A DNA stretch of 64,000 nucleotides from Bacteroidaceae bacterium (GTDB lineage: Bacteria > Bacteroidota > Bacteroidia > Bacteroidales > Bacteroidaceae). Each line of letters starts with the position of its first letter. The first letter of the stretch is position 1. The position numbers and the translations under genes are program-made. The notes under the pieces are model-generated. The model searched no databases. It worked only from the letters and a program-made list of their open reading frames with translations, and was not told where the DNA came from. The stretch is from the NCBI GenBank assembly GCA_017448965.1, contig JAFSKK010000058.1, positions 961 to 64,960 on the forward strand. The letters are read 5' to 3'. Of this stretch, positions 1,924 to 61,380 are shown piece by piece.

Positions 1924-3900
1924 ATGGATGAAACACTTATGAACGGGGCGGAATATTCTGCCAGTAACATCCAAGTCCTTGAGGGCTTGGAGGCCGTAAG
2001 AAAACGCCCCGCCATGTACATCGGTGACATCAGCGAGAAGGGTTTGCACCACCTCGTTTATGAAACCGTAGATAACTCTATCGATGAGGCGTTGGCAGGT
2101 TTCTGCACGCACATCGAAGTAACAATCAACGAAGACAATTCCATCACCGTACAGGACAACGGTCGTGGTATTCCTGTGGATATGCACGAGAAGGAGCATC
2201 GCAGTGCCCTCGAAGTGGTGATGACTGTGTTGCATGCCGGTGGTAAGTTCGACAAAGGCTCATACAAAGTGTCGGGCGGTCTGCACGGTGTGGGTGTGAG
2301 CTGTGTGAACGCACTTTCCACCCACATGACCTCGCAGGTGTTCCGCGACGGCAAGATTTATCAGCAGGAATATGAAAAGGGCAAGCCGCTCTACGACGTG
2401 AAAGTGGTGGGCGAGACAGAGCTGCGAGGCACCCGTCAGCAGTTCTGGCCTGACAAGACTATCTTCATCACCACCACATACAAGTATGACATCTTGGCAA
2501 ACCGTATGCGCGAACTCGCCTATCTGAACGCTGGCATCAAGATCACGTTGACTGATATGCGTCTGGACAAGAACGCTGAAGTGGGCATCGAAGGCATCCG
2601 TCAAGAAGTGTTCCACAGCGAAGGCGGTTTGAAGGACTTTGTGCGTTACATCGACTCTACACGCACCTGCCTGTTCGACGACGTGATTTATCTGAACACA
2701 GAGAAGCAGAACACGCCTATCGAAGTGGCTATCATGTATAACACTTCCTACAGCGAGAACATCCACTCTTACGTCAACAACATCAACACCATCGAGGGTG
2801 GTACGCACCTGCAAGGTTTCCGCACGGCATTGACCCGTGTGTTGAAGAAGTATGCTGATGACAACAAGATTACGGAGAAGCTGGAGAAACAGAAGATAGA
2901 AATCAGCGGTGAAGACTTCCGCGAGGGACTTACAGCTGTTATCAGCGTGAAGGTGGCAGAACCTCAGTTTGAGGGTCAGACGAAGACCAAGCTGGGCAAC
3001 AGCGAGGTAGCAGGTGCTGTTCAGCAGGCTGTAGGCGAGGCATTGTCTTACTATCTGGAAGAGCACCCCAAGGAGGCCAAGATGGTCATCGACAAAGTGG
3101 TGCTGGCTGCTGAGGCTCGTGTTGCCGCCCGTGCTGCCCGCGAGAAGGTGCAGCGCAAGAACCCGATGACAGGTGGTGGTCTGCCAGGCAAACTGGCTGA
3201 CTGCTCAGACAAGGATGCTGCCAACTGCGAGATGTTCATTGTCGAGGGAGATTCGGCCGGCGGCTCTGCCAAGCAGGGACGTGACCGCCACTTCCAAGCG
3301 ATATTACCTATCCGTGGTAAGATCTTCAACGTGGAGCGCGTCAAATGGCATCAGGCCTTCGAACACGAGGAGGTGAACAACATCTTCCAGGCACTCGGCG
3401 TGAAGTTCGGACTCAACCCAGAAGACCAGAAAGAAGCCAACTACGACAAGCTGCGTTACTACAAGACCATCATCATGACCGATGCCGATGTCGATGGCTC
3501 TCACATCGACACCCTTCTGATGACCCTGTTCTTCCGCTTCTTGCCACAGTTGATTCGCGACGGCCGTCTCTACATCGCCACACCCCCACTCTACAAGTGT
3601 ACAAAGGGAAAGGTGAGCGAGTATTGCTACGACGAGTCGGCTCTTCAGCGCTTTATCGACACCTACGGAGAAGGCTCCGAGGACAAGATTAAGGTACAGC
3701 GCTACAAAGGTCTTGGAGAGATGAACCCAGAGCAACTCTGGGAGACCACCATGAACCCCGCAACGCGTCTCCTGAAGCAAGTGACCATCGATGATGCTGC
3801 CGAGGCTGACTACACCTTCTCCATGCTGATGGGTGAAGACGTCGGTCCACGCCGCGAGTTCATCGAGAAGAACGCTACTTACGCCAACATCGACGCATAA
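1924..3900 (+). CDS. gyrB: DNA gyrase subunit B
   Basis: 658 aa. Contains GHKL ATPase motifs (LEAVRKRPAMYIGD, HAGGKF), Toprim EGDSAGG and PLRGKI-like IRGKIFNVE, and the C-terminal KGLGEMNP motif. Confidence 0.97.
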   Translation: MDETLMNGAEYSASNIQVLEGLEAVRKRPAMYIGDISEKGLHHLVYETVDNSIDEALAGFCTHIEVTINEDNSITVQDNGRGIPVDMHEKEHRSALEVVMTVLHAGGKFDKGSYKVSGGLHGVGVSCVNALSTHMTSQVFRDGKIYQQEYEKGKPLYDVKVVGETELRGTRQQFWPDKTIFITTTYKYDILANRMRELAYLNAGIKITLTDMRLDKNAEVGIEGIRQEVFHSEGGLKDFVRYIDSTRTCLFDDVIYLNTEKQNTPIEVAIMYNTSYSENIHSYVNNINTIEGGTHLQGFRTALTRVLKKYADDNKITEKLEKQKIEISGEDFREGLTAVISVKVAEPQFEGQTKTKLGNSEVAGAVQQAVGEALSYYLEEHPKEAKMVIDKVVLAAEARVAARAAREKVQRKNPMTGGGLPGKLADCSDKDAANCEMFIVEGDSAGGSAKQGRDRHFQAILPIRGKIFNVERVKWHQAFEHEEVNNIFQALGVKFGLNPEDQKEANYDKLRYYKTIIMTDADVDGSHIDTLLMTLFFRFLPQLIRDGRLYIATPPLYKCTKGKVSEYCYDESALQRFIDTYGEGSEDKIKVQRYKGLGEMNPEQLWETTMNPATRLLKQVTIDDAAEADYTFSMLMGEDVGPRREFIEKNATYANIDA

Positions 3901-12002: not shown

Positions 12003-12039
12003 ATATCGTTTCCTTTTTCTTTCTCTTTCGACTGCCGTT

Positions 12040-12121
12040 GTTCATAACTTATGGATAATTGTTCATAACTTATGGATAATTATTCGCAACTTATGAACAA
12101 ATATTCATAACTTATGAACGA
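12040..12121. repeat. four phased copies (21-bp spacing) of a 15-bp palindromic motif TTCATAA-N-TTATGAA, including a perfect 21-bp tandem duplication
   Basis: GTTCATAACTTATGGATAATT at 12040-12060 is repeated exactly at 12061-12081. Degenerate copies begin at 12083 and 12104. Confidence 0.85.
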
Positions 12122-12153
12122 CTTCTCCACCGACAGTTCGTCCCAAGCGTTCC

Positions 12154-21141: not shown

Positions 21142-21233
21142 CTTCCACTGCCTCCAAACCGACGTCGGGGACATCGGTCGACCGACATCGGGGACATCGG
21201 TTAACCGACATCGGGGACGTCGGTTTAGAGGCT
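21142..21233. repeat. palindromic intergenic element, family A copy 1 (three 23-bp ACCGACRTCGGGGAC units)
   Basis: ACCGAC recurs at 21158, 21181 and 21204. The termini CCTCCAAACCGAC / GTCGGTTTAGAGG are inverted. It is closely similar to 31822-31923. Confidence 0.85.
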
Positions 21234-31821: not shown

Positions 31822-31923
31822 TCTTCCACTACCTCTAAACCGACCTCCCCGACGTCGGTCGACCGACATCGGGGACATCGGTTGACCGACGTCGGGGAGG
31901 TCGGTTTAGAGGTAGTGGAAGGA
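31822..31923. repeat. palindromic intergenic element, family A copy 2 (about 100 bp, 38-bp perfect arms)
   Basis: CTTCCACTACCTCTAAACCGACCTCCCCGACGTCGGTC is mirrored exactly at the other end. The centre carries ACCGACATCGGGGAC units as in 21142-21233. Confidence 0.9.
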
Positions 31924-37414: not shown

Positions 37415-37506
37415 CACAAAAACGGTGTGAGTCACACCGATGGGGTCGGTCTGAGTCAGACCGAGGGTGGCGGTGTGAGTCACACCGATTCTGAGGTTGT
37501 GGAAGA
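37415..37506. repeat. three phased palindromes (CGGTNTGAGTCANACCG, 24-bp spacing) ending in GAGGTTGTGGAAG; possibly a diverged family A element
   Basis: The palindromes lie at 37423-37439, 37446-37464 and 37471-37487. The terminal GAGGTTGTGGAAG resembles GAGGTAGTGGAAG at 31909-31921. Confidence 0.8.
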
Positions 37507-37598
37507 GGGGATGAGGAGGATGTGGAAAAGGGTATAAAGAGGATGTGGAAGGAAGGCTATGATGGCAAAGAAAGGGAGAGGGAATCGCATGGGTTCTC

Positions 37599-39688: not shown

Positions 39689-39835
39689 GGAAGTTACCGC
39701 TTCGCTCAGAAGTTATAGAAGTTATCGCTTCGCTTAGGAGTTAAAGCCTATACCACCATGCGGGGTGTAAGTTACCATCTGTCGTACATAACATACGGCT
39801 TTAACTCCTCTAACTCCTTTAACTTCTTTAACTCC
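39689..39835. repeat. inverted GGAGTTAAAG-type decamer arrays flanking a 50-bp core (empty version of the 42422-42896 cassette)
   Basis: The left arm ends ...TTAGGAGTTAAAGCC (39745). The right arm is GGCTTTAACTCCTCTAACTCCTTTAACTTCTTTAACTCC (39797-39835). The left arm also has a 17-bp direct repeat, GAAGTTAYCGCTTCGCT. Confidence 0.8.
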
Positions 39836-39857: not shown

Positions 39858-41162
39858 TTAAGATTGTTTTATTAAATATTGCTTGAAGTCGGCAAAATCC
39901 TTCGTCATCGGAATGCTCTGCTTCGTACCCTTCATAAAGGCTTGCAACTTAGCTGGAATGTCGATATTGTCGTCAAGAATGCGGTCAACAGTATCCTTGA
40001 ACTTAGCAGGATGAGCCGTTTCCAAGAATACACCTACTTCGCCTGCCTTCAATCCCTCCTTCAAAGCACGATAGCCACAGGCACCATGAGGGTCACATAC
40101 ATAACCTGTCTCAACCTTCACCTCCTTGATGGTCTCGGCAATCTGCTCATCCTTGTAGGTCGCACCGCTGATGTCGGCACAGATGGCTTCGTGGCTCTTG
40201 CCATAGAGTTCATACACACGGGCAAAGTTGCTGGGGTCGCCCACATCCATCGCATTGGCAATGGTCTGTACCGATGCCTTGGGTTCATACTTGCCTGTCT
40301 GCAGATACTTAAAGAAGATGTCATTCGCATTGTTGGCAGCAATGAAACGCTTGACGGGCAGCCCCATCTTCTTGCCAAAGAGTGCCGAACAGATGTTGCC
40401 AAAGTTGCCCGAAGGCACACACACCACCAGTTGGTCGGCTAAACCCTTCTTCTTCATCTGAGCGTATGCATAGAAGTAGTAGAATGCCTGCGGGAGGAAA
40501 CGAGCCACATTGATGGAGTTGGCAGAGGTCAACTGCATGTGCTTGTTCAGGTCGGCATCCATAAAGGCATTCTTCACCAGTGCCTGACAGTCGTCGAACA
40601 CGCCATCCACCTCCACTGCGGTGATGTTCTGACCCAATGTCGTGAACTGACACTCCTGAATCGGACTTACTTTCCCCTTCGGATAGAGCACATACACATG
40701 AATGCCATCCACACCAAGGAATCCGTTTGCCACAGCACTACCCGTATCACCCGATGTTGCCACGAGCACATTCACCTGCCCTGCCCCTTCCTTCTTTAGG
40801 AAGAACTGCAAGAGACGCGCCATGAAACGTGCACCCACATCCTTGAACGCGAGTGTAGGACCGTGAAAGAGTTCCAGAGAATAGATGCTGTCGGTCACCT
40901 TCACACAAGGGCAATCGAACGCCAGCGTGTCATACACGATTCGCTTCAGATCCTCAGCAGGCACATCCTCGCCAAAGAAGGCATCAGCCACCGTATAGGC
41001 AATCTCTTGGAAAGAAAGGTTCTCTATGTTGTCGAAAAACTCCTGAGGCAAGGCCTTGATGCGCTCAGGCATATAGAGTCCCTTGTCCTCTGCGAGTCCT
41101 TTCACCACCGCCTTCTCCAGTGTGGCGATAGGTGCATGTCCGTTAGTCGAATAAAATTTCAT
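39858..41162 (-). CDS. thrC: threonine synthase
   Basis: 434 aa with the PLP lysine motif HGPTLAFKDVG. It is the last gene of the thr operon. Confidence 0.93.
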   Translation of the reverse strand: MKFYSTNGHAPIATLEKAVVKGLAEDKGLYMPERIKALPQEFFDNIENLSFQEIAYTVADAFFGEDVPAEDLKRIVYDTLAFDCPCVKVTDSIYSLELFHGPTLAFKDVGARFMARLLQFFLKKEGAGQVNVLVATSGDTGSAVANGFLGVDGIHVYVLYPKGKVSPIQECQFTTLGQNITAVEVDGVFDDCQALVKNAFMDADLNKHMQLTSANSINVARFLPQAFYYFYAYAQMKKKGLADQLVVCVPSGNFGNICSALFGKKMGLPVKRFIAANNANDIFFKYLQTGKYEPKASVQTIANAMDVGDPSNFARVYELYGKSHEAICADISGATYKDEQIAETIKEVKVETGYVCDPHGACGYRALKEGLKAGEVGVFLETAHPAKFKDTVDRILDDNIDIPAKLQAFMKGTKQSIPMTKDFADFKQYLIKQS

Positions 41163-41173
41163 GCTTATCTTTT

Positions 41174-42400
41174 TTATATCTTCATTAGCTCTTTAATAAA
41201 CTCATCCTTTTCCAACTGGCCGTAACTCCCCTTCTGGCAAGCCACCTCGTCAAAGGTCTCCACTTCATCTGCCTCTATGCCTGGTGCATAGATGAGGAAG
41301 GGAATCGGTTCGTTGGTGTGGGTGCGATGTGCCACAGGTGTAGGATGGTCGGGCAACACGGCGATGGCCACCTGCTGATCCTTCACGGCTTCATAGACTG
41401 GCTTCACGATGCGGCTGTCCAGATATTCAATGGTCTTCAGCTTCAGCTCCAAGTCGCCATCATGTCCTGCCTCATCCGAAGCCTCCACATGCACATAGAC
41501 GAAGTCGTCCGTCTCCAGTGCCTTGATGGCTGCCTGCGCCTTACCTTCGTAGTTGGTGTCAGCCAACCCTGTGGCTCCTGGCACATCAATCACTCTCAAT
41601 CCTGCCAACGTGCCAATGCCCCTGATGAGGTCAACGGCCGTGATGACAGCACCTCGCTTGATTTGCGGGAAAGTCTCGGTGAGCGGCACCATGTGGGGGC
41701 GATACCCTCCTGCCCAAGGCCAGATGCTGTTTGCCTGACGTTCGCCACGCTTCGCCTTCTCCACGTTGTAGGGATGACGAGCCAGCAACTCCTGCGAACG
41801 GAGAATCAAGTCATTGAGCAGGTCTGCTGTTTCCTGAGCCGTCAGTTCGTTATCTTTAGGTGCATCTGCCTTTGCCGTCACGAGCAGCGGACGCCAAGGT
41901 TCGCCTGGATGATCGTGTGGCGGCTGACATTCCACATGCTTGTTGCCGCCTTTGATGACGAGCAGATGGCGATATTGCACACCACAATAGAATCTCACCC
42001 TGTCTGTAGCCAGATGCTCATTGAGGTAGTCAATCAACACCGCCGCATCATCCGTCTGCAGATTTCCTCCATTGTGCGTGACAATGTTGCCGTCCTCCAG
42101 CGTGATGATGTTGCAGCGAATCGCCATATCGTCGGGCGCCAAGTCCACACCGATGCTGGCAGCCTCCAGAGGGCCACGACCTTCATACACCTCGTTCTGG
42201 TCATATCCGAGGATGCTACTGTTCGCCACTTCACTGCCCGGATGGAACCCGTCTTGCACCGTCTTCAACATGCCACAACGCCCCATCCTTGCCAACATGT
42301 CCATGTAGGGCGTCTCGGCATACTGCATTAAGGTCTTATTTCCCAGCGACTCAACTGGCCAATCGGCCATACCGTCGCCTAATATGATGATGTGTTTCAT
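41174..42400 (-). CDS. cofactor-independent phosphoglycerate mutase-like protein (proposed homoserine kinase of thrB-less Bacteroidetes)
   Basis: Start MKHIIILGDGMAD at 42400. It has an alkaline-phosphatase-superfamily metal-site pattern (DGMAD, HVEASDEAGH) and is embedded between thrA and thrC. Confidence 0.8.
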   Translation of the reverse strand: MKHIIILGDGMADWPVESLGNKTLMQYAETPYMDMLARMGRCGMLKTVQDGFHPGSEVANSSILGYDQNEVYEGRGPLEAASIGVDLAPDDMAIRCNIITLEDGNIVTHNGGNLQTDDAAVLIDYLNEHLATDRVRFYCGVQYRHLLVIKGGNKHVECQPPHDHPGEPWRPLLVTAKADAPKDNELTAQETADLLNDLILRSQELLARHPYNVEKAKRGERQANSIWPWAGGYRPHMVPLTETFPQIKRGAVITAVDLIRGIGTLAGLRVIDVPGATGLADTNYEGKAQAAIKALETDDFVYVHVEASDEAGHDGDLELKLKTIEYLDSRIVKPVYEAVKDQQVAIAVLPDHPTPVAHRTHTNEPIPFLIYAPGIEADEVETFDEVACQKGSYGQLEKDEFIKELMKI

Positions 42401-42421
42401 TGTCTCTATTTCTCTTGATGA

Positions 42422-42461
42422 GGAGTTAAAGGAGTTAGAGGGAGTTATAGGAGTTAAAGCC
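42422..42461. repeat. left inverted decamer array (GGAGTTAAAG GAGTTAGAGG GAGTTATAGG AGTTAAAGCC)
   Basis: About 93 percent complementary to 42856-42896 (two mismatches, one indel, aligned by hand). Confidence 0.9.
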
Positions 42462-42470
42462 AGATGCTGG

Positions 42471-42848
42471 CTACATTTCTGCACTATAATCCTTATCAAT
42501 TACTCCCTTACAATATGCATTAAGCATTTTGCTGGCATCTTCTATGGACTTTCCCATCATACTATACTCTTCTGTATTTATATAACCTAAGTCTCGCGAG
42601 AGAATGATATAATATCGACACTCCTCCAAACTTCCTTGTGCAATGTTAAAGAAACGGAGTTTGTCAGCCTTACTCAACTTTCTATATCCTTCTGCTATAT
42701 TAGCAGGAATGGACACAGCTGCTCTTTGAAACTGAGAGCCCAAACCGAATCTCTCATACTCAGGGAAATTTCTCGTCACCTGATATACTTTCAGCACAAA
42801 ATCATGTGCCTTCTTCCAAGCCACAATATCCTGAAAAGTATTTGTCAT
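42471..42848 (-). CDS. four-helix-bundle protein (23S rRNA intervening-sequence protein family, TIGR02436-like)
   Basis: 125 aa. Pattern: W.KAHDFVLKVY..T..FP..E.FGL.SQ..RAAVSIPANIAEG......K...FF.IA.GSLEE. Confidence 0.85.
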   Translation of the reverse strand: MTNTFQDIVAWKKAHDFVLKVYQVTRNFPEYERFGLGSQFQRAAVSIPANIAEGYRKLSKADKLRFFNIAQGSLEECRYYIILSRDLGYINTEEYSMMGKSIEDASKMLNAYCKGVIDKDYSAEM

Positions 42849-42855
42849 CGCATTC

Positions 42856-42896
42856 GGCTTTTAACTCCTTTAACTCCTTCTAACTCCTTTAACTCC
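42856..42896. repeat. right inverted decamer array (GGCTTTTAACTCCTTTAACTCCTTCTAACTCCTTTAACTCC)
   Basis: Reverse complement of the left array. It ends 4 nt before the thrA stop codon. Confidence 0.9.
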
Positions 42897-42900
42897 TGTT

Positions 42901-45396
42901 TTAAATATTCGCAATACTCATGATGTCGGCAAACACACCAGCTGCGGTCACAGAGGCACCGGCACCATAACCCTGAATGAGCATGGGGTACTGGTTGTAG
43001 CGTTCCGTAGTGATGAGAATGATGTTGTTCGAGCCTTCGAGGTCGTAGAATGGATGACGCTCACCCACACGCTCCAACGACACGGAACCCTTGCCGTTTT
43101 CCAGCTTGGCCACGAAGCGCCAATGCTGATGAGCTGCCTCCACCTCCTTGCGCTCTGCCTCGAACTGGGCATCGAGTGTTGGGAGGTTCTTCCAGAAGTC
43201 TTCCAACGAACCATCAAAGAAGGGCTGCGGAATGAAGAGGTTTTTCTCCACATCCTCCTGATTCATCTTGTAGCCAGCCTCACGAGAGAGGATGACCAAC
43301 TTGCGAATCACGTCTTTACCGCTCAAGTCAATACGTGGGTCTGGCTCAGCATAACCCTCTTCCTTAGCTCTACGCACCGTCTCGCTGAAAGGCACATTCT
43401 CCGAAATCGTGTTGAAGATGAAGTTCAGCGTACCGCTCAGCACAGCCTCCAACTTCAGAATCTTGTCACCCGAATTGATGAGGTCATTGATGGTGTTGAT
43501 AATCGGCAGACCTGCACCCACATTCGTCTCGAACAGATACTTCACACCACGCTTACGGGCAGTAGCCTTCAGACGTGCATAGTTATCGTAGTCGCTCGAT
43601 GCAGCCACCTTGTTGGCAGCCACCACCGAGATGTTATTGCTCAGCAAATCCTCATACAGCCCTGCCACATCGGCGCTGGCCGTGCAATCCACAAACACGC
43701 TGTTGAAGATGTTCATGCCGATGACTTCCTCCTTCAGACGTTCCAGGTCACTTGCCTCAGCAGCCTTCAAACCGGCACGCAGTTCTGCAATGGAGAACTT
43801 GCCATCCTTTTCCCACTGTGACAGGTTGATGCCGTTTCTGTCAAACATCGCATTGTGTCCGCTGGCGATGCCCACCACATTGATTTGCAGGTTACGCTCC
43901 TTCATCAGCTTCTGACGTTGCCCGGCAATCTGCTCCAACAGACTTCCACCCACGGTGCCGACGCCACACAGGAAGACGTTCAGCACCTGGTATTCTGACA
44001 GAAAAAACGAGTCGTGAATCACATTCAGCGACTTTCTGAGGCTCTTCCGCTCCACCACAAACGAGATGTTCGTCTCGCTGGCACCCTGTGCACAAGCAAT
44101 CACGCTGATACCGTTACGTCCCAACGTACCAAAGAGCTTACCAGCAATACCAGGCGTATGCTTCATGTTCTCACCCACGATAGCCACCGTCGCCAAGTCA
44201 CGCTCCAGCTTCATCTTGTACATCGCGCCCATCTCTATCTCCTTCGCGAACTCCTTGTTCAGCACCTCACAAGCACGGTCAGCATCCGCATCGGTCACAC
44301 CAATGGATGTGCTGTTTTCCGAACTTGCCTGACTCACCATGAACACGCTGATACCGTTCTCTGCCAAAGTCGTGAAGATGCGGCGGTTCACACCAATCAC
44401 ACCCACCATCGACAAACCGCTCACCGTGATCAGGCTCGTGTTGTTGATGGAAGAGATGCCCTTGATGGCACGTCCTTCATCCTCCGTCTCATCCATATTC
44501 GTGATGATGGTTCCCTTGTCCTCAGGACGGAACGTGTTCTTAATGAGAATTGGAATGTTCTTGAGGCAAACAGGGTAAATCGTCGGAGGATACACCACCT
44601 TCGCACCGAAGTTGCAAAGCTCCGTCGCCTCCACATACGAAAGTCGTTCGATGGGGTATGCCGTATTGATGACACGTGGGTCAGCCGTCATAAAGCCGCT
44701 CACGTCCGTCCAGATTTCCAACACCTCAGCATTCAGCGCAGCCGCCAAGATAGCAGCCGTGTAGTCAGAACCACCACGTCCGAGGTTCGTCACCTCGCCC
44801 GTCACACTGTCTGTCGAAATGAAACCACCGCAGACACCCACAGTATTCATTCCTGATTCCTCATTCCTAATTCCTAATTCACCAAAGGTTTCCAGAATCA
44901 GTGGCATACTGATAGAATTGCTGAACAAGTTACGACCCTGCTTCTTCTTCGTCTTGATGAACTCCAGCGAATTGTACCACTTGGCACCCGCAATCAACGT
45001 TGCCACGATGTTCGAACTGATACGCTCGCCATACGACACAATCGCATTGCTCGTCTTCTCGCTCAGGTCGCCAATCAGATACACACCCTGATAGATGCTC
45101 TTCAACTGACCCAGCAACTCGTCCACCGTCGCCAGCAACGTCTGTTTCTTCTCCGTGTCTGTGATAATGGCGTCAATCATCTGGTGGTGACGCTCCACCA
45201 TCTCTTCATAAGCCGTGAGGTACGCCCCGTCGCCGGCAACCGCCAGTTTCGAGGTGTTGATGAGCTTGTCGGTAATGCCGCCCAAAGCCGACACCACCAC
45301 CACGACAGGCTCCTGCTGTCCCTCCACAATCTTCTTCAAATTGAGAATGCTCTCCACGGAACCAACCGAAGTTCCGCCAAACTTTAATACCTTCAT
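42901..45396 (-). CDS. thrA: bifunctional aspartokinase / homoserine dehydrogenase
   Basis: Start MKVLKFGGTSVG at 45396 (aspartokinase N-terminus). It has ACT regions and a C-terminal homoserine dehydrogenase domain (FLCGVGTVGG). The longer ORF to 45531 runs through the promoter. Confidence 0.93.
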   Translation of the reverse strand: MKVLKFGGTSVGSVESILNLKKIVEGQQEPVVVVVSALGGITDKLINTSKLAVAGDGAYLTAYEEMVERHHQMIDAIITDTEKKQTLLATVDELLGQLKSIYQGVYLIGDLSEKTSNAIVSYGERISSNIVATLIAGAKWYNSLEFIKTKKKQGRNLFSNSISMPLILETFGELGIRNEESGMNTVGVCGGFISTDSVTGEVTNLGRGGSDYTAAILAAALNAEVLEIWTDVSGFMTADPRVINTAYPIERLSYVEATELCNFGAKVVYPPTIYPVCLKNIPILIKNTFRPEDKGTIITNMDETEDEGRAIKGISSINNTSLITVSGLSMVGVIGVNRRIFTTLAENGISVFMVSQASSENSTSIGVTDADADRACEVLNKEFAKEIEMGAMYKMKLERDLATVAIVGENMKHTPGIAGKLFGTLGRNGISVIACAQGASETNISFVVERKSLRKSLNVIHDSFFLSEYQVLNVFLCGVGTVGGSLLEQIAGQRQKLMKERNLQINVVGIASGHNAMFDRNGINLSQWEKDGKFSIAELRAGLKAAEASDLERLKEEVIGMNIFNSVFVDCTASADVAGLYEDLLSNNISVVAANKVAASSDYDNYARLKATARKRGVKYLFETNVGAGLPIINTINDLINSGDKILKLEAVLSGTLNFIFNTISENVPFSETVRRAKEEGYAEPDPRIDLSGKDVIRKLVILSREAGYKMNQEDVEKNLFIPQPFFDGSLEDFWKNLPTLDAQFEAERKEVEAAHQHWRFVAKLENGKGSVSLERVGERHPFYDLEGSNNIILITTERYNQYPMLIQGYGAGASVTAAGVFADIMSIANI

Positions 45397-45435
45397 TCCG
45401 TATATCTTTAGGGTACCATATTCAAAAAACAGTTG

Positions 45436-45443
45436 CAAAGGTA
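45436..45443 (-). promoter_or_regulatory. -7 promoter box TACCTTTG for the thr operon
   Basis: Reverse complement of CAAAGGTA, about 40 nt upstream of the thrA ATG. Confidence 0.5.
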
Positions 45444-45518
45444 CGTCATTTTCACCGAACGGCAAAGAAAAATCCTCAAAACCAACTTTTTGAGGAAGGA
45501 AAATGTAGGGGTAGAAAG

Positions 45519-45554
45519 AAAGAACGTGCATTCGATGTCGAACGCACGTTCTTT
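45519..45554 (-). terminator. hairpin terminator downstream of the GH115 gene
   Basis: AAAGAACGTGC / GCACGTTCTTT 11-bp stem, 9 nt after the stop at 45563, with a T-rich tail on the minus strand. Confidence 0.5.
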
Positions 45555-52625: not shown

Positions 52626-53133
52626 CATCTATTTCGGAACTACCCACGTCAGAGCCACATTTTTTCATCTGGCTTGGGAGATTTGTCCTCATTTCGCCAT
52701 CGTGAGAGATGTATTTGCACTTCTTGTTCACATTGATAGGTGTGCTCTTCGGAAAGGCGATGCTATACGCCTTGTCGAGGGCATTCAGGTTCACCTTCCG
52801 CATGCCGATGCCCAGTTTCACGCAGACGATGGCTCTCAGCAATTCGCGGTGCTTGCGTGGATAGAGTTTCGGCGATGGCAGTTCATCCCATCCGCACACC
52901 TCGTCCTCTTCGTTGAGCACGTTCGATGCCTGAAAGCACACCTCCCAAATGAAGTCATCGTCGGCTTCACTTCCGAACCACGATTGCAGCACACGGCGGA
53001 TGCAGAACCGCCTGTACTGCCCCTTGAAGAGGCGCCTTGTGCGCTCCAGCCGAAGCCAGAGCTGCACAAAGCATTCTTGAGTATTTTGAATATCAATCAT
53101 AGCGGTAGCAAATTTTTCACCTTTCATTTTCAC
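52621..53133 (-). CDS. hypothetical protein (island gene)
   Basis: 170-aa ORF with no recognised domain. The first 11 codons are encoded by the heptamer microsatellite, so MIDIQNT at 53100 is an alternative start. Confidence 0.45.
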   Translation of the reverse strand: MKMKGEKFATAMIDIQNTQECFVQLWLRLERTRRLFKGQYRRFCIRRVLQSWFGSEADDDFIWEVCFQASNVLNEEDEVCGWDELPSPKLYPRKHRELLRAIVCVKLGIGMRKVNLNALDKAYSIAFPKSTPINVNKKCKYISHDGEMRTNLPSQMKKCGSDVGSSEIDV

Positions 53134-53178
53134 TTTTCATTTTTCACTTTTCACTTTTCACCTTTCACTTTTCACTTC
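53113..53178. repeat. heptamer microsatellite, about nine units of (G)TGAAA(A/G) on the minus strand
   Basis: TTTTCACC TTTCAT TTTCAC TTTTCAT TTTTCAC TTTTCAC TTTTCACC TTTCAC TTTTCAC. It lies between the stop of the 766-aa gene and the next ORF. Confidence 0.85.
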
Positions 53179-61235: not shown

Positions 61236-61270
61236 ACCGTGTTACAGCGTTACAGTGTTACAGTTCCAAA
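61236..61270. repeat. ACTGTAAC octamer-triplet repeat, copy B (inverted)
   Basis: CACCGTGTTACAGCGTTACAGTGTTACAGTTCC is the reverse complement of GGAACTGTAACACTGTAACGCTGTAACACGGTG. Confidence 0.9.
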
Positions 61271-61342
61271 AACAATCATGGAAGGCAAAAATAAACTCTA
61301 TATTTATATATAAATATAGAAGTATATTTAGGGGTTTGGAAA

Positions 61343-61380
61343 GGCCTTTCGGGAACTGTAACACTGTAACAAGTGTAACA
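61343..61380. repeat. ACTGTAAC octamer-triplet repeat, copy C
   Basis: GGCCTTTCGGGAACTGTAACACTGTAACAAGTGTAACA. With copy B it forms an inverted pair around an 85-bp AT-rich spacer containing CTATATTTATATATAAATATAG. Confidence 0.9.

What the first reader, a model, noticed from the sequence alone, without database searches (positions are those of the whole stretch)
42422..42896. rRNA-IVS-type four-helix-bundle gene flanked by 40-bp inverted decamer arrays, inserted inside the threonine operon
A 125-aa four-helix-bundle gene belongs to the family first found inside 23S rRNA intervening sequences. It is bracketed by two arrays of four GGAGTTA(A/G/T)AG decamers in inverted orientation (42422-42461 and 42856-42896). 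These would form a roughly 40-bp stem with two mismatches and one indel.

The 475-bp cassette fills the thrA to homoserine-kinase-like gap almost exactly, lying 4 nt from the thrA stop and 21 nt from the next ATG. The architecture (long stem enclosing the ORF) mirrors rRNA IVSs that RNase III excises. Here it lies in an mRNA, so it might trigger processing of the polycistronic thr transcript, or it may represent a selfish mini-cassette.
Basis: partly seen in the sequence, partly recalled or inferred. Interest (0 to 1): 0.65.

Follow-up and report, generated by a model that had tools for sequence, protein, structure and literature searches.

The report
Stem-framed IVS-type gene cassette in operon
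A small, well-conserved gene of the family first found inside 23S rRNA intervening sequences sits between two threonine-operon genes of a rumen Prevotella, framed by inverted arrays of 9-nt repeats; comparison shows it is one copy of a widespread, apparently undescribed kind of insertable cassette that wedges into transcribed spacers (rRNA helices and gaps between operon genes) in several bacterial phyla.

Summary
A 125-aa PF05635/TIGR02436 four-helix-bundle (4HB) gene (42471-42848, minus strand) is framed by inverted arrays of GGAGTTA[A/G/T]AG units. The period is 9 nt, not 10. The cassette fills the thrA-to-apgM gap. It is not fixed at this site. Close relatives have thrA's stop 0-1 nt from the apgM ATG, and others carry different hairpin-bounded inserts there. 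Two contigs 99.5% identical in the flanks differ in the insert. Every 4HB gene examined (about 20 independent loci in Bacteroidota, Cyanobacteriota, Gemmatimonadota and a true Azospirillum 23S IVS) has short tandem arrays on both sides. The arrays are usually inverted, and the gene always points the same way as the upstream gene. ORF-less mini versions are commoner; one lies after thrC at 39690-39835. They sit only downstream of genes. The ORF is under strong purifying selection (dN/dS about 0.1), is AT-richer than the host genes, and clusters by insertion site. I read it as a promoterless IVS-type cassette, transcribed with the operon, whose roughly 45-bp RNA stem is a likely RNase III substrate. 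Cleavage could not be tested, and stem mismatches show no G·U excess. How it moves and what the protein does are unknown.

The parts
42858..42897 (-). 5' arm on the coding strand: four tandem units AGGAGTTAAAGGAGTTAGAAGGAGTTAAAGGAGTTAAAAG, starting 3-4 nt after the thrA stop codon
42849..42857 (-). Inner 5' junction CCGAATGCG, which extends the stem right up to the start codon. It pairs with 42462-42470.
42471..42848 (-). 125-aa four-helix-bundle gene (PF05635 / TIGR02436, the '23S rRNA intervening sequence protein' family, Avd-like). GC3 is 36.5% against 61-73% in neighbouring genes. dN/dS is 0.08-0.10 against orthologous cassettes.
42421..42461 (-). 3' arm on the coding strand: GGCTTTAACTCCTATAACTCCCTCTAACTCCTTTAACTCCT, the complement of the 5' arm
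42401..42420 (-). A-rich 20-nt spacer CATCAAGAGAAATAGAGACA between the 3' arm and the apgM ATG. It is absent from empty sites and homologous to the spacer of the L011/L031 cassettes, so it is part of the insert. It is the likely unstructured leader for the downstream gene.
42898..42900 (-). 3-nt spacer (AAC) between the thrA stop and the 5' arm
39690..39835 (-). ORF-less mini-element of the same family between thrC and the 7TM-HD gene. It has four GGAGTTAAAG/GAAGTTAAAG units, the AAGCC...GGCTT junction, a centre of about 50 nt, and a 3' arm interrupted by two AGCGAAGCG(A/G)T modules. It folds with z = -6.5.
42901..45399 (-). Host gene thrA (bifunctional aspartate kinase / homoserine dehydrogenase), upstream neighbour
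41174..42400 (-). Host gene for the apgM-like 'proposed homoserine kinase', downstream neighbour. The true start is the ATG at 42400; gene callers often extend it into the cassette.

Best explanation
This is a discrete, promoterless gene cassette of the same kind as the ORF-bearing intervening sequences of 23S rRNA, lodged here in an intercistronic spacer of an mRNA operon. The unit is: short spacer, tandem purine-rich repeats, inner junction, 4HB gene, inner junction, complementary pyrimidine-rich repeats, A-rich tail. It is transcribed by read-through from the thr promoter. In the transcript the arms pair into a stem of about 45 bp that encloses exactly the ORF. By analogy with rRNA IVSs, RNase III would cut that stem. 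That would separate thrA from apgM-thrC, release the 4HB message, and expose its buried start region. The A-rich tail would leave the downstream gene a free initiation region, which would make the insertion tolerable. The protein is functional and is probably a pentameric, Avd-like nucleic-acid binder acting on the element's own repeats. ORF-less minis are probably derivatives of the same element. Shown here: the anatomy; the empty site and strain-level turnover; the family-wide frame; co-orientation with the upstream gene; purifying selection; foreign composition; no own promoter or terminator. Inferred: RNase III cleavage, translational activation, the protein's target, and any mobility mechanism.
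For: (1) Empty site. In L025, L026, L028 and L029 (apgM 92-94% identical) the thrA stop and apgM ATG are 0-1 nt apart. Of 79 related thr operons, 37 have gaps of 15 nt or less, and 20 have inserts of 60 nt or more, 12 of them bounded by inverted repeats.
(2) Turnover. L011 (4HB cassette) and L027 (148-nt ORF-less element with GGAGTGAAAG arms and a different tail) are 99.4-99.6% identical in both flanking genes.
(3) Frame. All Prevotella-type 4HB genes found have inverted tandem arrays, in the slots thrA|apgM, etfA|acyl-CoA dehydrogenase, GDSL lipase|dnaG and eda|map, and in L132, L144 and L201. Distant members have other units (L093, L161). The same holds in Picosynechococcus, Nostoc, Aulosira, Geminocystis, Gemmatirosa and Riemerella, and in a true 23S rRNA IVS in Azospirillum. 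The Coxiella IVS stem also contains tandem heptamers of variable number and is cut by RNase III (PMC4990558).
(4) Orientation. In every context where the upstream gene could be identified (about 15 independent contexts), the ORF points the same way as that gene. There is no promoter motif or terminator in the cassette.
(5) Selection. dN/dS is 0.06-0.10 between orthologous cassettes.
(6) Composition. GC3 is 36.5 against 61-73 in neighbours, and lower than neighbours in all 11 hosts tested.
(7) Stem strength. z = -7.1.
(8) Minis. They lie only downstream of genes: about 17 between co-directional genes, 13 between convergent genes, 1 doubtful between divergent genes.
(9) Transcription. Rumen metatranscriptome contigs cover the ORF at 97-98% identity.
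Against: There is no direct evidence of cleavage: only assembled contigs were available, not reads. Stem mismatches on the sense strand are 24 G·U, 30 A·C and 48 other (p = 0.5), so nothing shows that the pairing is selected as RNA. Two family members (Pseudanabaena, Nostoc PCC 7120) have direct arrays that cannot form a stem, so the arrays, not the stem, may be the essential feature. There is no sign of recent movement: each exact protein occurs in one context only, proteins cluster by site, and synonymous sites between sites are saturated. No transposase, integrase or target-site duplication was identified. The protein's activity is unknown. PADLOC gives no hit and the DGR-Avd model scores below its cut-off.
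Confidence: 0.55

Rival explanations
1. The element works at the DNA level. The tandem units are multiple binding sites in inverted orientation for a protein (the 4HB pentamer itself or an unlinked recombinase), as in transposon ends with subterminal repeats or REPIN/RAYT systems. Alternatively they fold as single-stranded DNA hairpins during replication. The RNA stem is then a by-product.
For: There is no G·U excess in the stems. The unit sequence RGAGTTAAR is kept between cassettes whose synonymous sites are saturated, so the sequence itself, not just pairing, is constrained or homogenised. Two members have direct arrays. Minis can lie in either orientation relative to transcription, judged by the GCGAAGCG module (L177 and L146 opposite). 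Unit number changes in one arm only between strains. A gene flanked by inverted copies of a dispersed repeat is the RAYT/REPIN layout (PMC3116915, listed; the layout is from my own knowledge).
Against: The 4HB fold has no known catalytic or recombinase activity. No target-site duplication was found and there are no near-identical copies at different sites. The strict co-orientation of the ORF with host transcription and the placement only in transcribed spacers, including rRNA helices, point to an RNA-level constraint.
Confidence: 0.25
2. The cassette is domesticated operon punctuation. The host keeps the stem to set different stabilities or expression levels for thrA and apgM-thrC, as REP/BIME or Correia elements do, and the 4HB gene has a host-beneficial function.
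For: Cassettes reside for a long time at the same slot across species: etf-slot proteins are 75-88% identical in hosts whose EtfA is 87-94% identical. The ORF is under strong purifying selection. Minis sit where REP-like stabilisers sit.
Against: Very close relatives do without it: gaps of 0-1 nt and 37 of 79 operons with gaps of 15 nt or less. The slot holds unrelated inserts in other lineages, and contents differ between 99.5%-identical strains. Composition is persistently foreign. The same cassette occurs in functionally unrelated operons (thr, etf, dnaG, map, cas, par, rRNA).
Confidence: 0.12
3. It is a chance inverted repeat or an assembly artefact around an ordinary small gene.
For: None beyond the general frequency of short repeats in AT-rich spacers.
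Against: 8 matches were observed against 0.09 expected. The fold z-score is -7.1. The identical cassette is in 16 contigs from different samples. The same frame occurs in about 20 independent loci.
Confidence: 0.01

Closest known systems
ORF-bearing intervening sequences (IVS) of 23S rRNA (Leptospira, Coxiella, Brucella, Xanthomonas; Azospirillum lipoferum copy examined here)
   Same: Same protein family (PF05635, 'S23p'). The ORF is enclosed by complementary ends that form a long stem. The stems are built partly of tandem 7-9-nt units whose number varies between strains (Coxiella, PMC4990558; Azospirillum). There is no own promoter. Distribution among strains is patchy.
   Different: The host molecule is an mRNA operon spacer, not helix 9, 25 or 45 of 23S rRNA (no rRNA in the window). 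The ORF is under strong purifying selection here, whereas the Coxiella ORF is decaying and probably untranslated (PMC4990558). RNase III excision is shown for rRNA IVSs and is untested here.
REP / BIME / REPIN elements with their RAYT genes
   Same: Both are short palindromic repeats dispersed in 3' and intercistronic regions, never in divergent promoter gaps. Both form inverted pairs. Both include a gene flanked by inverted copies of the dispersed repeat. Both are long-lived and mostly vertically inherited.
   Different: The flanked gene is a 125-aa four-helix bundle, not a Y1/HUH transposase. The arms are tandem arrays of a 7-10-nt unit, not a single 20-40-nt palindrome. Several 4HB cassettes can occur per genome.
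Correia (nemis/CREE) elements of Neisseria and ERIC elements of enterobacteria
   Same: They are inverted-repeat elements co-transcribed inside operons that form long RNA hairpins. Correia hairpins are cut by RNase III and change the stability of flanking messages (my own knowledge, not checked here). This is the best model for how the stem would act on thr mRNA.
   Different: Those are non-coding MITEs with target-site duplications and many near-identical copies. Here an ORF is enclosed, copies are old and diverged, and no duplication was seen.
Avd, the accessory protein of diversity-generating retroelements
   Same: It is a homologous pentameric four-helix-bundle fold. The window protein hits PF22296 at E 4e-8 (score below that model's cut-off), PHROG Avd at 8e-12, and NF033474 at 3.5e-12. 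Avd binds nucleic acid and a reverse transcriptase (my own knowledge).
   Different: It scores 46.6 against a cut-off of 80 for the Avd equivalog. None of the neighbouring genes examined (thrA, apgM, thrC, 7TM-HD) is a reverse transcriptase.
Short tandemly repeated repetitive (STRR) heptamers of heterocystous cyanobacteria
   Same: The arrays flanking cyanobacterial 4HB genes are intergenic tandem heptamers (GGAGTCA, GCTAAAA) of variable number inside operons.
   Different: STRRs were described as repeats alone. I found no link to a framed gene or to inverted pairing in the searchable literature.

Membership tests
PF05635 / TIGR02436 four-helix-bundle ('23S rRNA IVS protein', S23p) protein family | Score above the curated cut-off of the family models | tested here: met
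   PF05635 134.3 bits (cut-off 33.8); TIGR02436 127.7 bits (cut-off 24)
PF05635 / TIGR02436 four-helix-bundle ('23S rRNA IVS protein', S23p) protein family | Conserved motif R-x3-S-x3-N-x2-E, and homology to the solved pentameric four-helix bundle Xcc0516 | tested here: met
   The sequence contains QRAAVSIPANIAEG. The motif is as reported in PMC3936711. 2GSC matches at E 6.5e-19 over residues 7-104. The pentameric state itself was not tested.
23S rRNA intervening sequence (IVS) | Inserted in a helix of the 23S rRNA gene | tested here: not met
   Rfam finds only one tRNA in the window. The flanks are thrA and apgM.
23S rRNA intervening sequence (IVS) | Complementary ends that form a long stem enclosing the insert (and its ORF, where present) | tested here: met
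   The stem is about 45 bp, z = -7.1, and begins 1 nt before the start codon and 3 nt after the stop codon.
23S rRNA intervening sequence (IVS) | Excised from the transcript by RNase III without re-ligation | not testable with these tools
   Only assembled metatranscriptome contigs were available. The 'skip 499/500' joints are about 95%-identical empty-site alleles also seen in DNA contigs, not RNA excision.
DGR accessory protein Avd | Score above the equivalog cut-off, and an adjacent reverse transcriptase with template and variable repeats | tested here: not met
   NF033474 scores 46.6 against a cut-off of 80. The neighbours are thrA, apgM, thrC and a 7TM-HD gene.
REPIN / RAYT system | The dispersed palindromic repeat flanks, in inverted orientation, a single-copy Y1 (HUH) transposase gene | tested here: not met
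   The flanked gene is a 4HB protein with no transposase domain. The dispersed ORF-less copies and their placement are REP-like.
MITE / IS-derived element | Terminal inverted repeats plus a target-site duplication, and multiple near-identical copies | tested here: inconclusive
   Inverted arms are present. No clear duplication appears when filled and empty sites are compared. Each exact protein is found at one site only, and paralogues have saturated dS.
Integron gene cassette | Promoterless ORF with a single attC at its 3' end, inserted at an attI next to an integrase | tested here: not met
   The cassette is promoterless and co-oriented, but it has arms on both sides and no integrase gene among the genes flanking the loci examined.

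The most novel reading that the evidence does not exclude
The 4HB gene plus its tandem-array arms is an autonomous mobile element of a kind not yet described. The pentameric Avd-like protein would recognise the repeated units of its own arms, one unit per subunit, and promote copying or insertion of the cassette into transcribed spacers and hairpin tips. This might go through an RNA intermediate with a host reverse transcriptase, as its homologue Avd does in diversity-generating retroelements. rRNA intervening sequences, 'cas-associated' 23S_rRNA_IVP genes and the Prevotella operon wedges would then all be one element family.
Probability: 0.15. Interest if true: 0.9.

Novelty: new variant of a known kind. 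Interest (0 to 1): 0.72.

Why it matters
ORF-bearing rRNA intervening sequences have been an unexplained curiosity for about 30 years. Their origin, their mobility and the role of the S23p/4HB protein are all unknown. This locus and its relatives show that the same framed cassette lives in ordinary operons. There, empty and filled alleles, strain-level turnover and selection on the ORF can all be read directly, and genetics is possible without touching the ribosome.

It also re-reads earlier observations. '23S_rRNA_IVP' genes reported as CRISPR-associated (between cmr2 and cmr3, or cas6 and cas4) look like the same wedge. A gmk-4HB-nadD locus in Flavobacterium columnare flagged as a phage region is another.

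There are practical consequences too. Gene callers extend apgM into the cassette. The arms are a multi-copy repeat at which the metatranscriptome contigs end. If the stems are cut by RNase III, thousands of Prevotella operons carry built-in processing sites. A standalone Avd-like protein with a defined, repeated nucleic-acid partner would also be a useful handle on how Avd proteins work.

Tried and rejected
(1) RNA splicing or excision. The joints 42399/42400 to 42899/42901 in metatranscriptome contigs looked like excision. They are about 95%-identical alleles, and the same empty junction exists in DNA contigs, so they come from empty-site strains.
(2) Read-level RNA end mapping.
(3) G·U versus A·C asymmetry as proof of RNA-level selection came out negative: 24 vs 30.
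(4) A nested phylogeny to decide gain versus loss at the thr slot. All relatives are about equally distant (85-92% nucleotide identity), so polarity cannot be read.
(5) A target-site duplication. None was convincing.
(6) A defence-system role. No PADLOC hit.
(7) Phage carriage. No tblastn hit in 50,697 phage records. The viral-contig pattern scan gave mostly unrelated repeats with a 27-nt spacing and was not analysed further.
(8) Rfam. No known RNA family covers the arms or the minis.
(9) The GCGAAGCG module as a strict sense-strand marker. It holds in the window mini, the L012 mini, L024, L144 and L221, but is reversed in L177 and L146.
(10) A strict AAGCC/GGCTT inner-junction test. Only 4 of 40 elements have both motifs, because a second sub-type (AAGAC/GTCTT) and module-bearing variants exist.
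(11) The original Leptospira IVS paper (PMC47033) is not held.

Full report
**Observation**

On the plus strand, 42421-42459 carries four tandem units GGAGTTA[A/G/T]AG, and 42858-42897 carries their reverse complement. Ungapped, the arms are 38 nt and 95% complementary. Tandem Repeats Finder gives a period of 9 nt with one 10-nt copy, so the 'decamers' are nonamers that share a G. A two-unit pattern occurs 8 times in the window against 0.09 expected, and no shuffle reached that number.

All genes are on the minus strand:
- thrA, a bifunctional aspartate kinase / homoserine dehydrogenase (42901-45399).
- The 125-aa ORF (42471-42848).
- An apgM-like 'proposed homoserine kinase' (41174-42400).
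- thrC (39858-41162).

The 5' arm starts 3-4 nt after the thrA stop. The 3' arm ends 20-21 nt before the apgM ATG. The ORF matches PF05635 (E 2.4e-39) and TIGR02436 (E 2e-37). It has weaker similarity to DGR Avd models and to the solved pentameric four-helix bundle 2GSC (E 6.5e-19).

Folded as RNA on the coding strand, the arms plus the inner junction form a stem of about 45 bp, in both the minimum-energy and the centroid structures (z = -7.1). The stem starts 1 nt before the start codon and 3 nt after the stop codon, so the loop is exactly the ORF.

The other half of the pattern hits lie at 39690-39835, between thrC and the next co-directional gene. This is an ORF-less version. It has four GGAGTTAAAG/GAAGTTAAAG units, the same AAGCC...GGCTT junction, and a centre of about 50 nt. 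Its complementary arm is interrupted by two AGCGAAGCG(A/G)T modules. It folds with z = -6.5.

**Which organism, and is it real**

The exact protein is encoded at this same position in 16 metagenome contigs from different samples. About 8,000 homologues at 67% identity or more are annotated, where named, as Prevotella, Bacteroidaceae or Bacteroidales MAGs. RNA runs that hold the locus are bovine and sheep gut metatranscriptomes.

**Is the frame a property of the gene family?**

Yes, in every case examined. Prevotella-type homologues sit in four other kinds of place, and each is framed by inverted arrays of RGAGTTAA(A)(G) units:
- Between etfA and an acyl-CoA dehydrogenase gene, in at least four species.
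- Between a GDSL lipase gene and dnaG.
- Between eda and map.
- In three further loci (L132, L144, L201).

Distant Prevotella family members have the same design with quite different units: AATGTAAAA in L093, and TTTTGAGTT with 87-nt arms in L161.

The design also holds outside Bacteroidales. Cyanobacterial plasmid copies wedge between cas10/cmr2 and cmr3 (Picosynechococcus, unit GGAGATAAG) and between small operon genes (Nostoc, Aulosira, heptamer GGAGTCA). Geminocystis (parA|parB), Gemmatirosa (9-nt GGGCAGGAG) and Riemerella (8-nt AAGGTTYA) have inverted arrays as well. All score well above shuffled controls.

The Azospirillum lipoferum copy lies inside a 23S rRNA gene, so it is a true IVS, and it is framed by inverted tandem heptamers. 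The Coxiella IVS stem also contains tandem heptamers whose number varies between strains (PMC4990558).

There are two exceptions. Pseudanabaena (cas6|cas4) and Nostoc PCC 7120 have tandem arrays on both sides in direct orientation, which cannot pair.

In every context where the upstream gene could be identified (about 15 independent contexts), the ORF points the same way as that gene.

**Is it fixed at this site?**

No. I fetched 80 related thr operons. In L025, L026, L028 and L029 (apgM 92-94% identical) the thrA stop and apgM ATG are 0-1 nt apart: TAAATG, TAG-C-ATG. Of 79 operons with a readable junction:
- 37 have gaps of 15 nt or less.
- 22 have gaps of 16-59 nt.
- 20 have inserts of 60 nt or more, 12 of them bounded by strong inverted repeats.

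The 4HB cassette orthologous to the window's occurs only in L011, L031 and L033 (82-83% protein identity, with homologous spacers). The closest relative, L024 (apgM 99% identical), has instead a 128-nt ORF-less element built of AAGTGAAAA units. L027 has a 148-nt one built of GGAGTGAAAG units. L046 and L093 carry AT-rich arrays around another ORF, and L048 carries a GC-rich inverted repeat.

L011 and L027 are 99.4-99.6% identical over 800 nt of thrA and 1,200 nt of apgM. Even so, one carries the 4HB cassette and the other the mini, with different arm units and a different 3' tail. So the content of the slot turns over at strain level.

The other junctions of the operon behave in a similar way. 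The apgM|thrC and thrC|HD gaps range from overlapping genes to hundreds of nucleotides of variable-copy palindromes or arrays.

**How old and how mobile?**

The proteins cluster by slot. Identity is 82-94% within the thr slot and 75-88% within the etf slot, against 68-74% between slots. EtfA of the same hosts is 87-94% identical. Between slots, synonymous sites are saturated. Each exact protein sequence was found in only one genomic context.

So the cassettes are old, mostly vertically inherited residents, with rare gain, loss or replacement. They are not active transposons. Even so, the arm unit RGAGTTAAR is shared between slots. That means either sequence-specific constraint or homogenisation among copies. 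L222 shows compensatory GTAG/CTAC unit changes in its two arms. Unit number changes by slippage between strains, often in one arm only.

**Is the gene functional and foreign?**

dN/dS is 0.06-0.10 between orthologous thr-slot cassettes. This contrasts with the decaying Coxiella ORF. GC3 is 36.5% against 61-73% for the neighbours. The 4HB ORF is AT-richer than its neighbours in all 11 hosts checked, yet it tracks the host's level.

The cassette has no Bacteroidota -7 motif (TAnnTTTG). It has no terminator-like site and no excess of promoter-like sites. It must therefore be expressed from the host operon's promoter, which explains the strict co-orientation.

**The ORF-less minis**

About 85 are from Prevotella, Bacteroidaceae or other Bacteroidales, including cultured Hoylesella loescheii and Prevotella sp. 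B2-R-102. Of 40 paired elements, 37 are ORF-less, with centres of 10-180 nt in all but a few.

Their placement is about 17 between co-directional genes, 13 between convergent genes, and one doubtful case between divergent genes. They start mostly 0-60 nt after a stop codon. That is the placement of REP/BIME-type elements.

Minis and cassettes share a similar inner junction, in two sub-types: AAGCC...GGCTT and AAGAC...GTCTT. This is consistent with common descent.

**RNA evidence**

Only assembled contigs were available. They show the ORF covered at 97-98% identity at low depth. The arm is a high-depth repeat with many different flanks. Two 'skipped' joints are diverged empty-site alleles, not splicing.

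A test for selection on RNA pairing was negative. Mismatches on the sense strand are 24 G·U, 30 A·C and 48 other. Cleavage by RNase III therefore rests on two things. One is the physical nature of a 45-bp RNA duplex. The other is the precedent of rRNA IVSs, for which cleavage is shown (PMC4990558).

**Interpretation**

The best-supported reading is a promoterless, self-framed IVS-type cassette that lives in transcribed spacers. rRNA helices are one niche and intercistronic gaps are another. The stem would be cut by RNase III, which would uncouple the flanking cistrons and free the 4HB message. The A-rich tail would give the downstream gene a free initiation region.

The main rival is that the tandem units act as DNA or RNA binding sites for a protein, possibly the pentameric 4HB itself, and that the stem is secondary. 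The lack of a wobble signature, the conserved unit sequence and the two direct-array exceptions keep this rival alive. A purely host-regulatory role is unlikely, given the empty sites, the turnover, the foreign composition and the unrelated host operons.

**Comparison with the literature**

I found no paper that describes this frame around 4HB genes outside rRNA, or that links it to cyanobacterial heptamer repeats. Earlier work listed the family as cas-associated, for example between cmr2 and cmr3 (PMC3936711; PMC10910872). A gmk-4HB-nadD locus with 35- and 33-nt gaps in Flavobacterium columnare was listed as a phage region (PMC5524665). Both fit the wedge habit described here. The literature search covers open-access text only.

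**Verdict**

The 'selfish cassette' reading is supported and generalised. RNase III processing is plausible but untested. The element fails the defining location test for a 23S rRNA IVS, but it shares the IVS's gene family and architecture. I class it as a new variant of a known kind.

Noticed in passing
window 31823-31921 and 21150-21232: Two copies of a GC-rich palindromic element (core AACCGACGTCGGGGACATCGGTCGACC). The first has 44-nt arms, 98% complementary, 11 nt apart. This is a different intergenic repeat family from the one studied.
   Followed up: no
window 61249-61272 / 61347-61370: Inverted arrays of GTTACAGT-type 8-nt units, 74 nt apart. It is another ORF-less 'inverted tandem array' element with its own unit.
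   Followed up: no
window 12037-12122; 53114-53177; 37423-37551: Other tandem arrays: a 21-nt unit TTCATAACTTATGGATAATTA x3.6 that is also palindromic; the heptamer TTTTCAC x9; and two adjacent 23/24-nt arrays downstream of the 7TM-HD gene.
   Followed up: no
window 42401-42499 (and L001-L004, L009): Gene callers start the apgM-like gene at an upstream TTG, giving a 436- or 441-aa product that runs through the cassette's 3' arm and overlaps the 4HB stop codon. Homology puts the true start at the ATG at 42400.
   Followed up: partly
L015 1488-1862, compared with L012 1775-1925: In one strain the etfB|etfA slot holds a small DUF559/Vsr-like endonuclease gene, preceded by a different GC-rich hairpin. 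Sister strains have an ORF-less array element there. The slot accepts unrelated small inserts.
   Followed up: partly
L011, L027, L031, L033: apgM|thrC and thrC|HD gaps: Palindromes GTACCCnnGGGTAC occur in 1-3 copies, and a direct array TTCTAGGCNT in about 3-8 copies, differing between near-identical strains. Gaps at these junctions range from -4 to over 1,000 nt across relatives.
   Followed up: partly
L350 (Picosynechococcus PCC 7003 plasmid), L356 (Pseudanabaena galeata plasmid), L358 (Geminocystis plasmid): 4HB genes are wedged co-directionally between cas10/cmr2 and cmr3, between cas6 and cas4, and between parA and parB. Earlier reports of this family as 'cas-associated' may simply reflect this habit.
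   Followed up: partly
window 39750-39790 region; L012 about 1880-1900; L024 about 3480-3500; L144: A short module AGCGAAGCGAT, whose core GCGAAGC could form a mini-hairpin, recurs inside or beside the 3' arms of several elements. GCGAAGCG occurs 96 times in 1.57 Mb of fetched loci, against about 48 expected on both strands.
   Followed up: partly
window 42901-45531: The thrA ORF as listed runs 876 aa from an upstream ATG. The family models align from the internal MKVLKFGG start (832 aa, 42901-45399).
   Followed up: no
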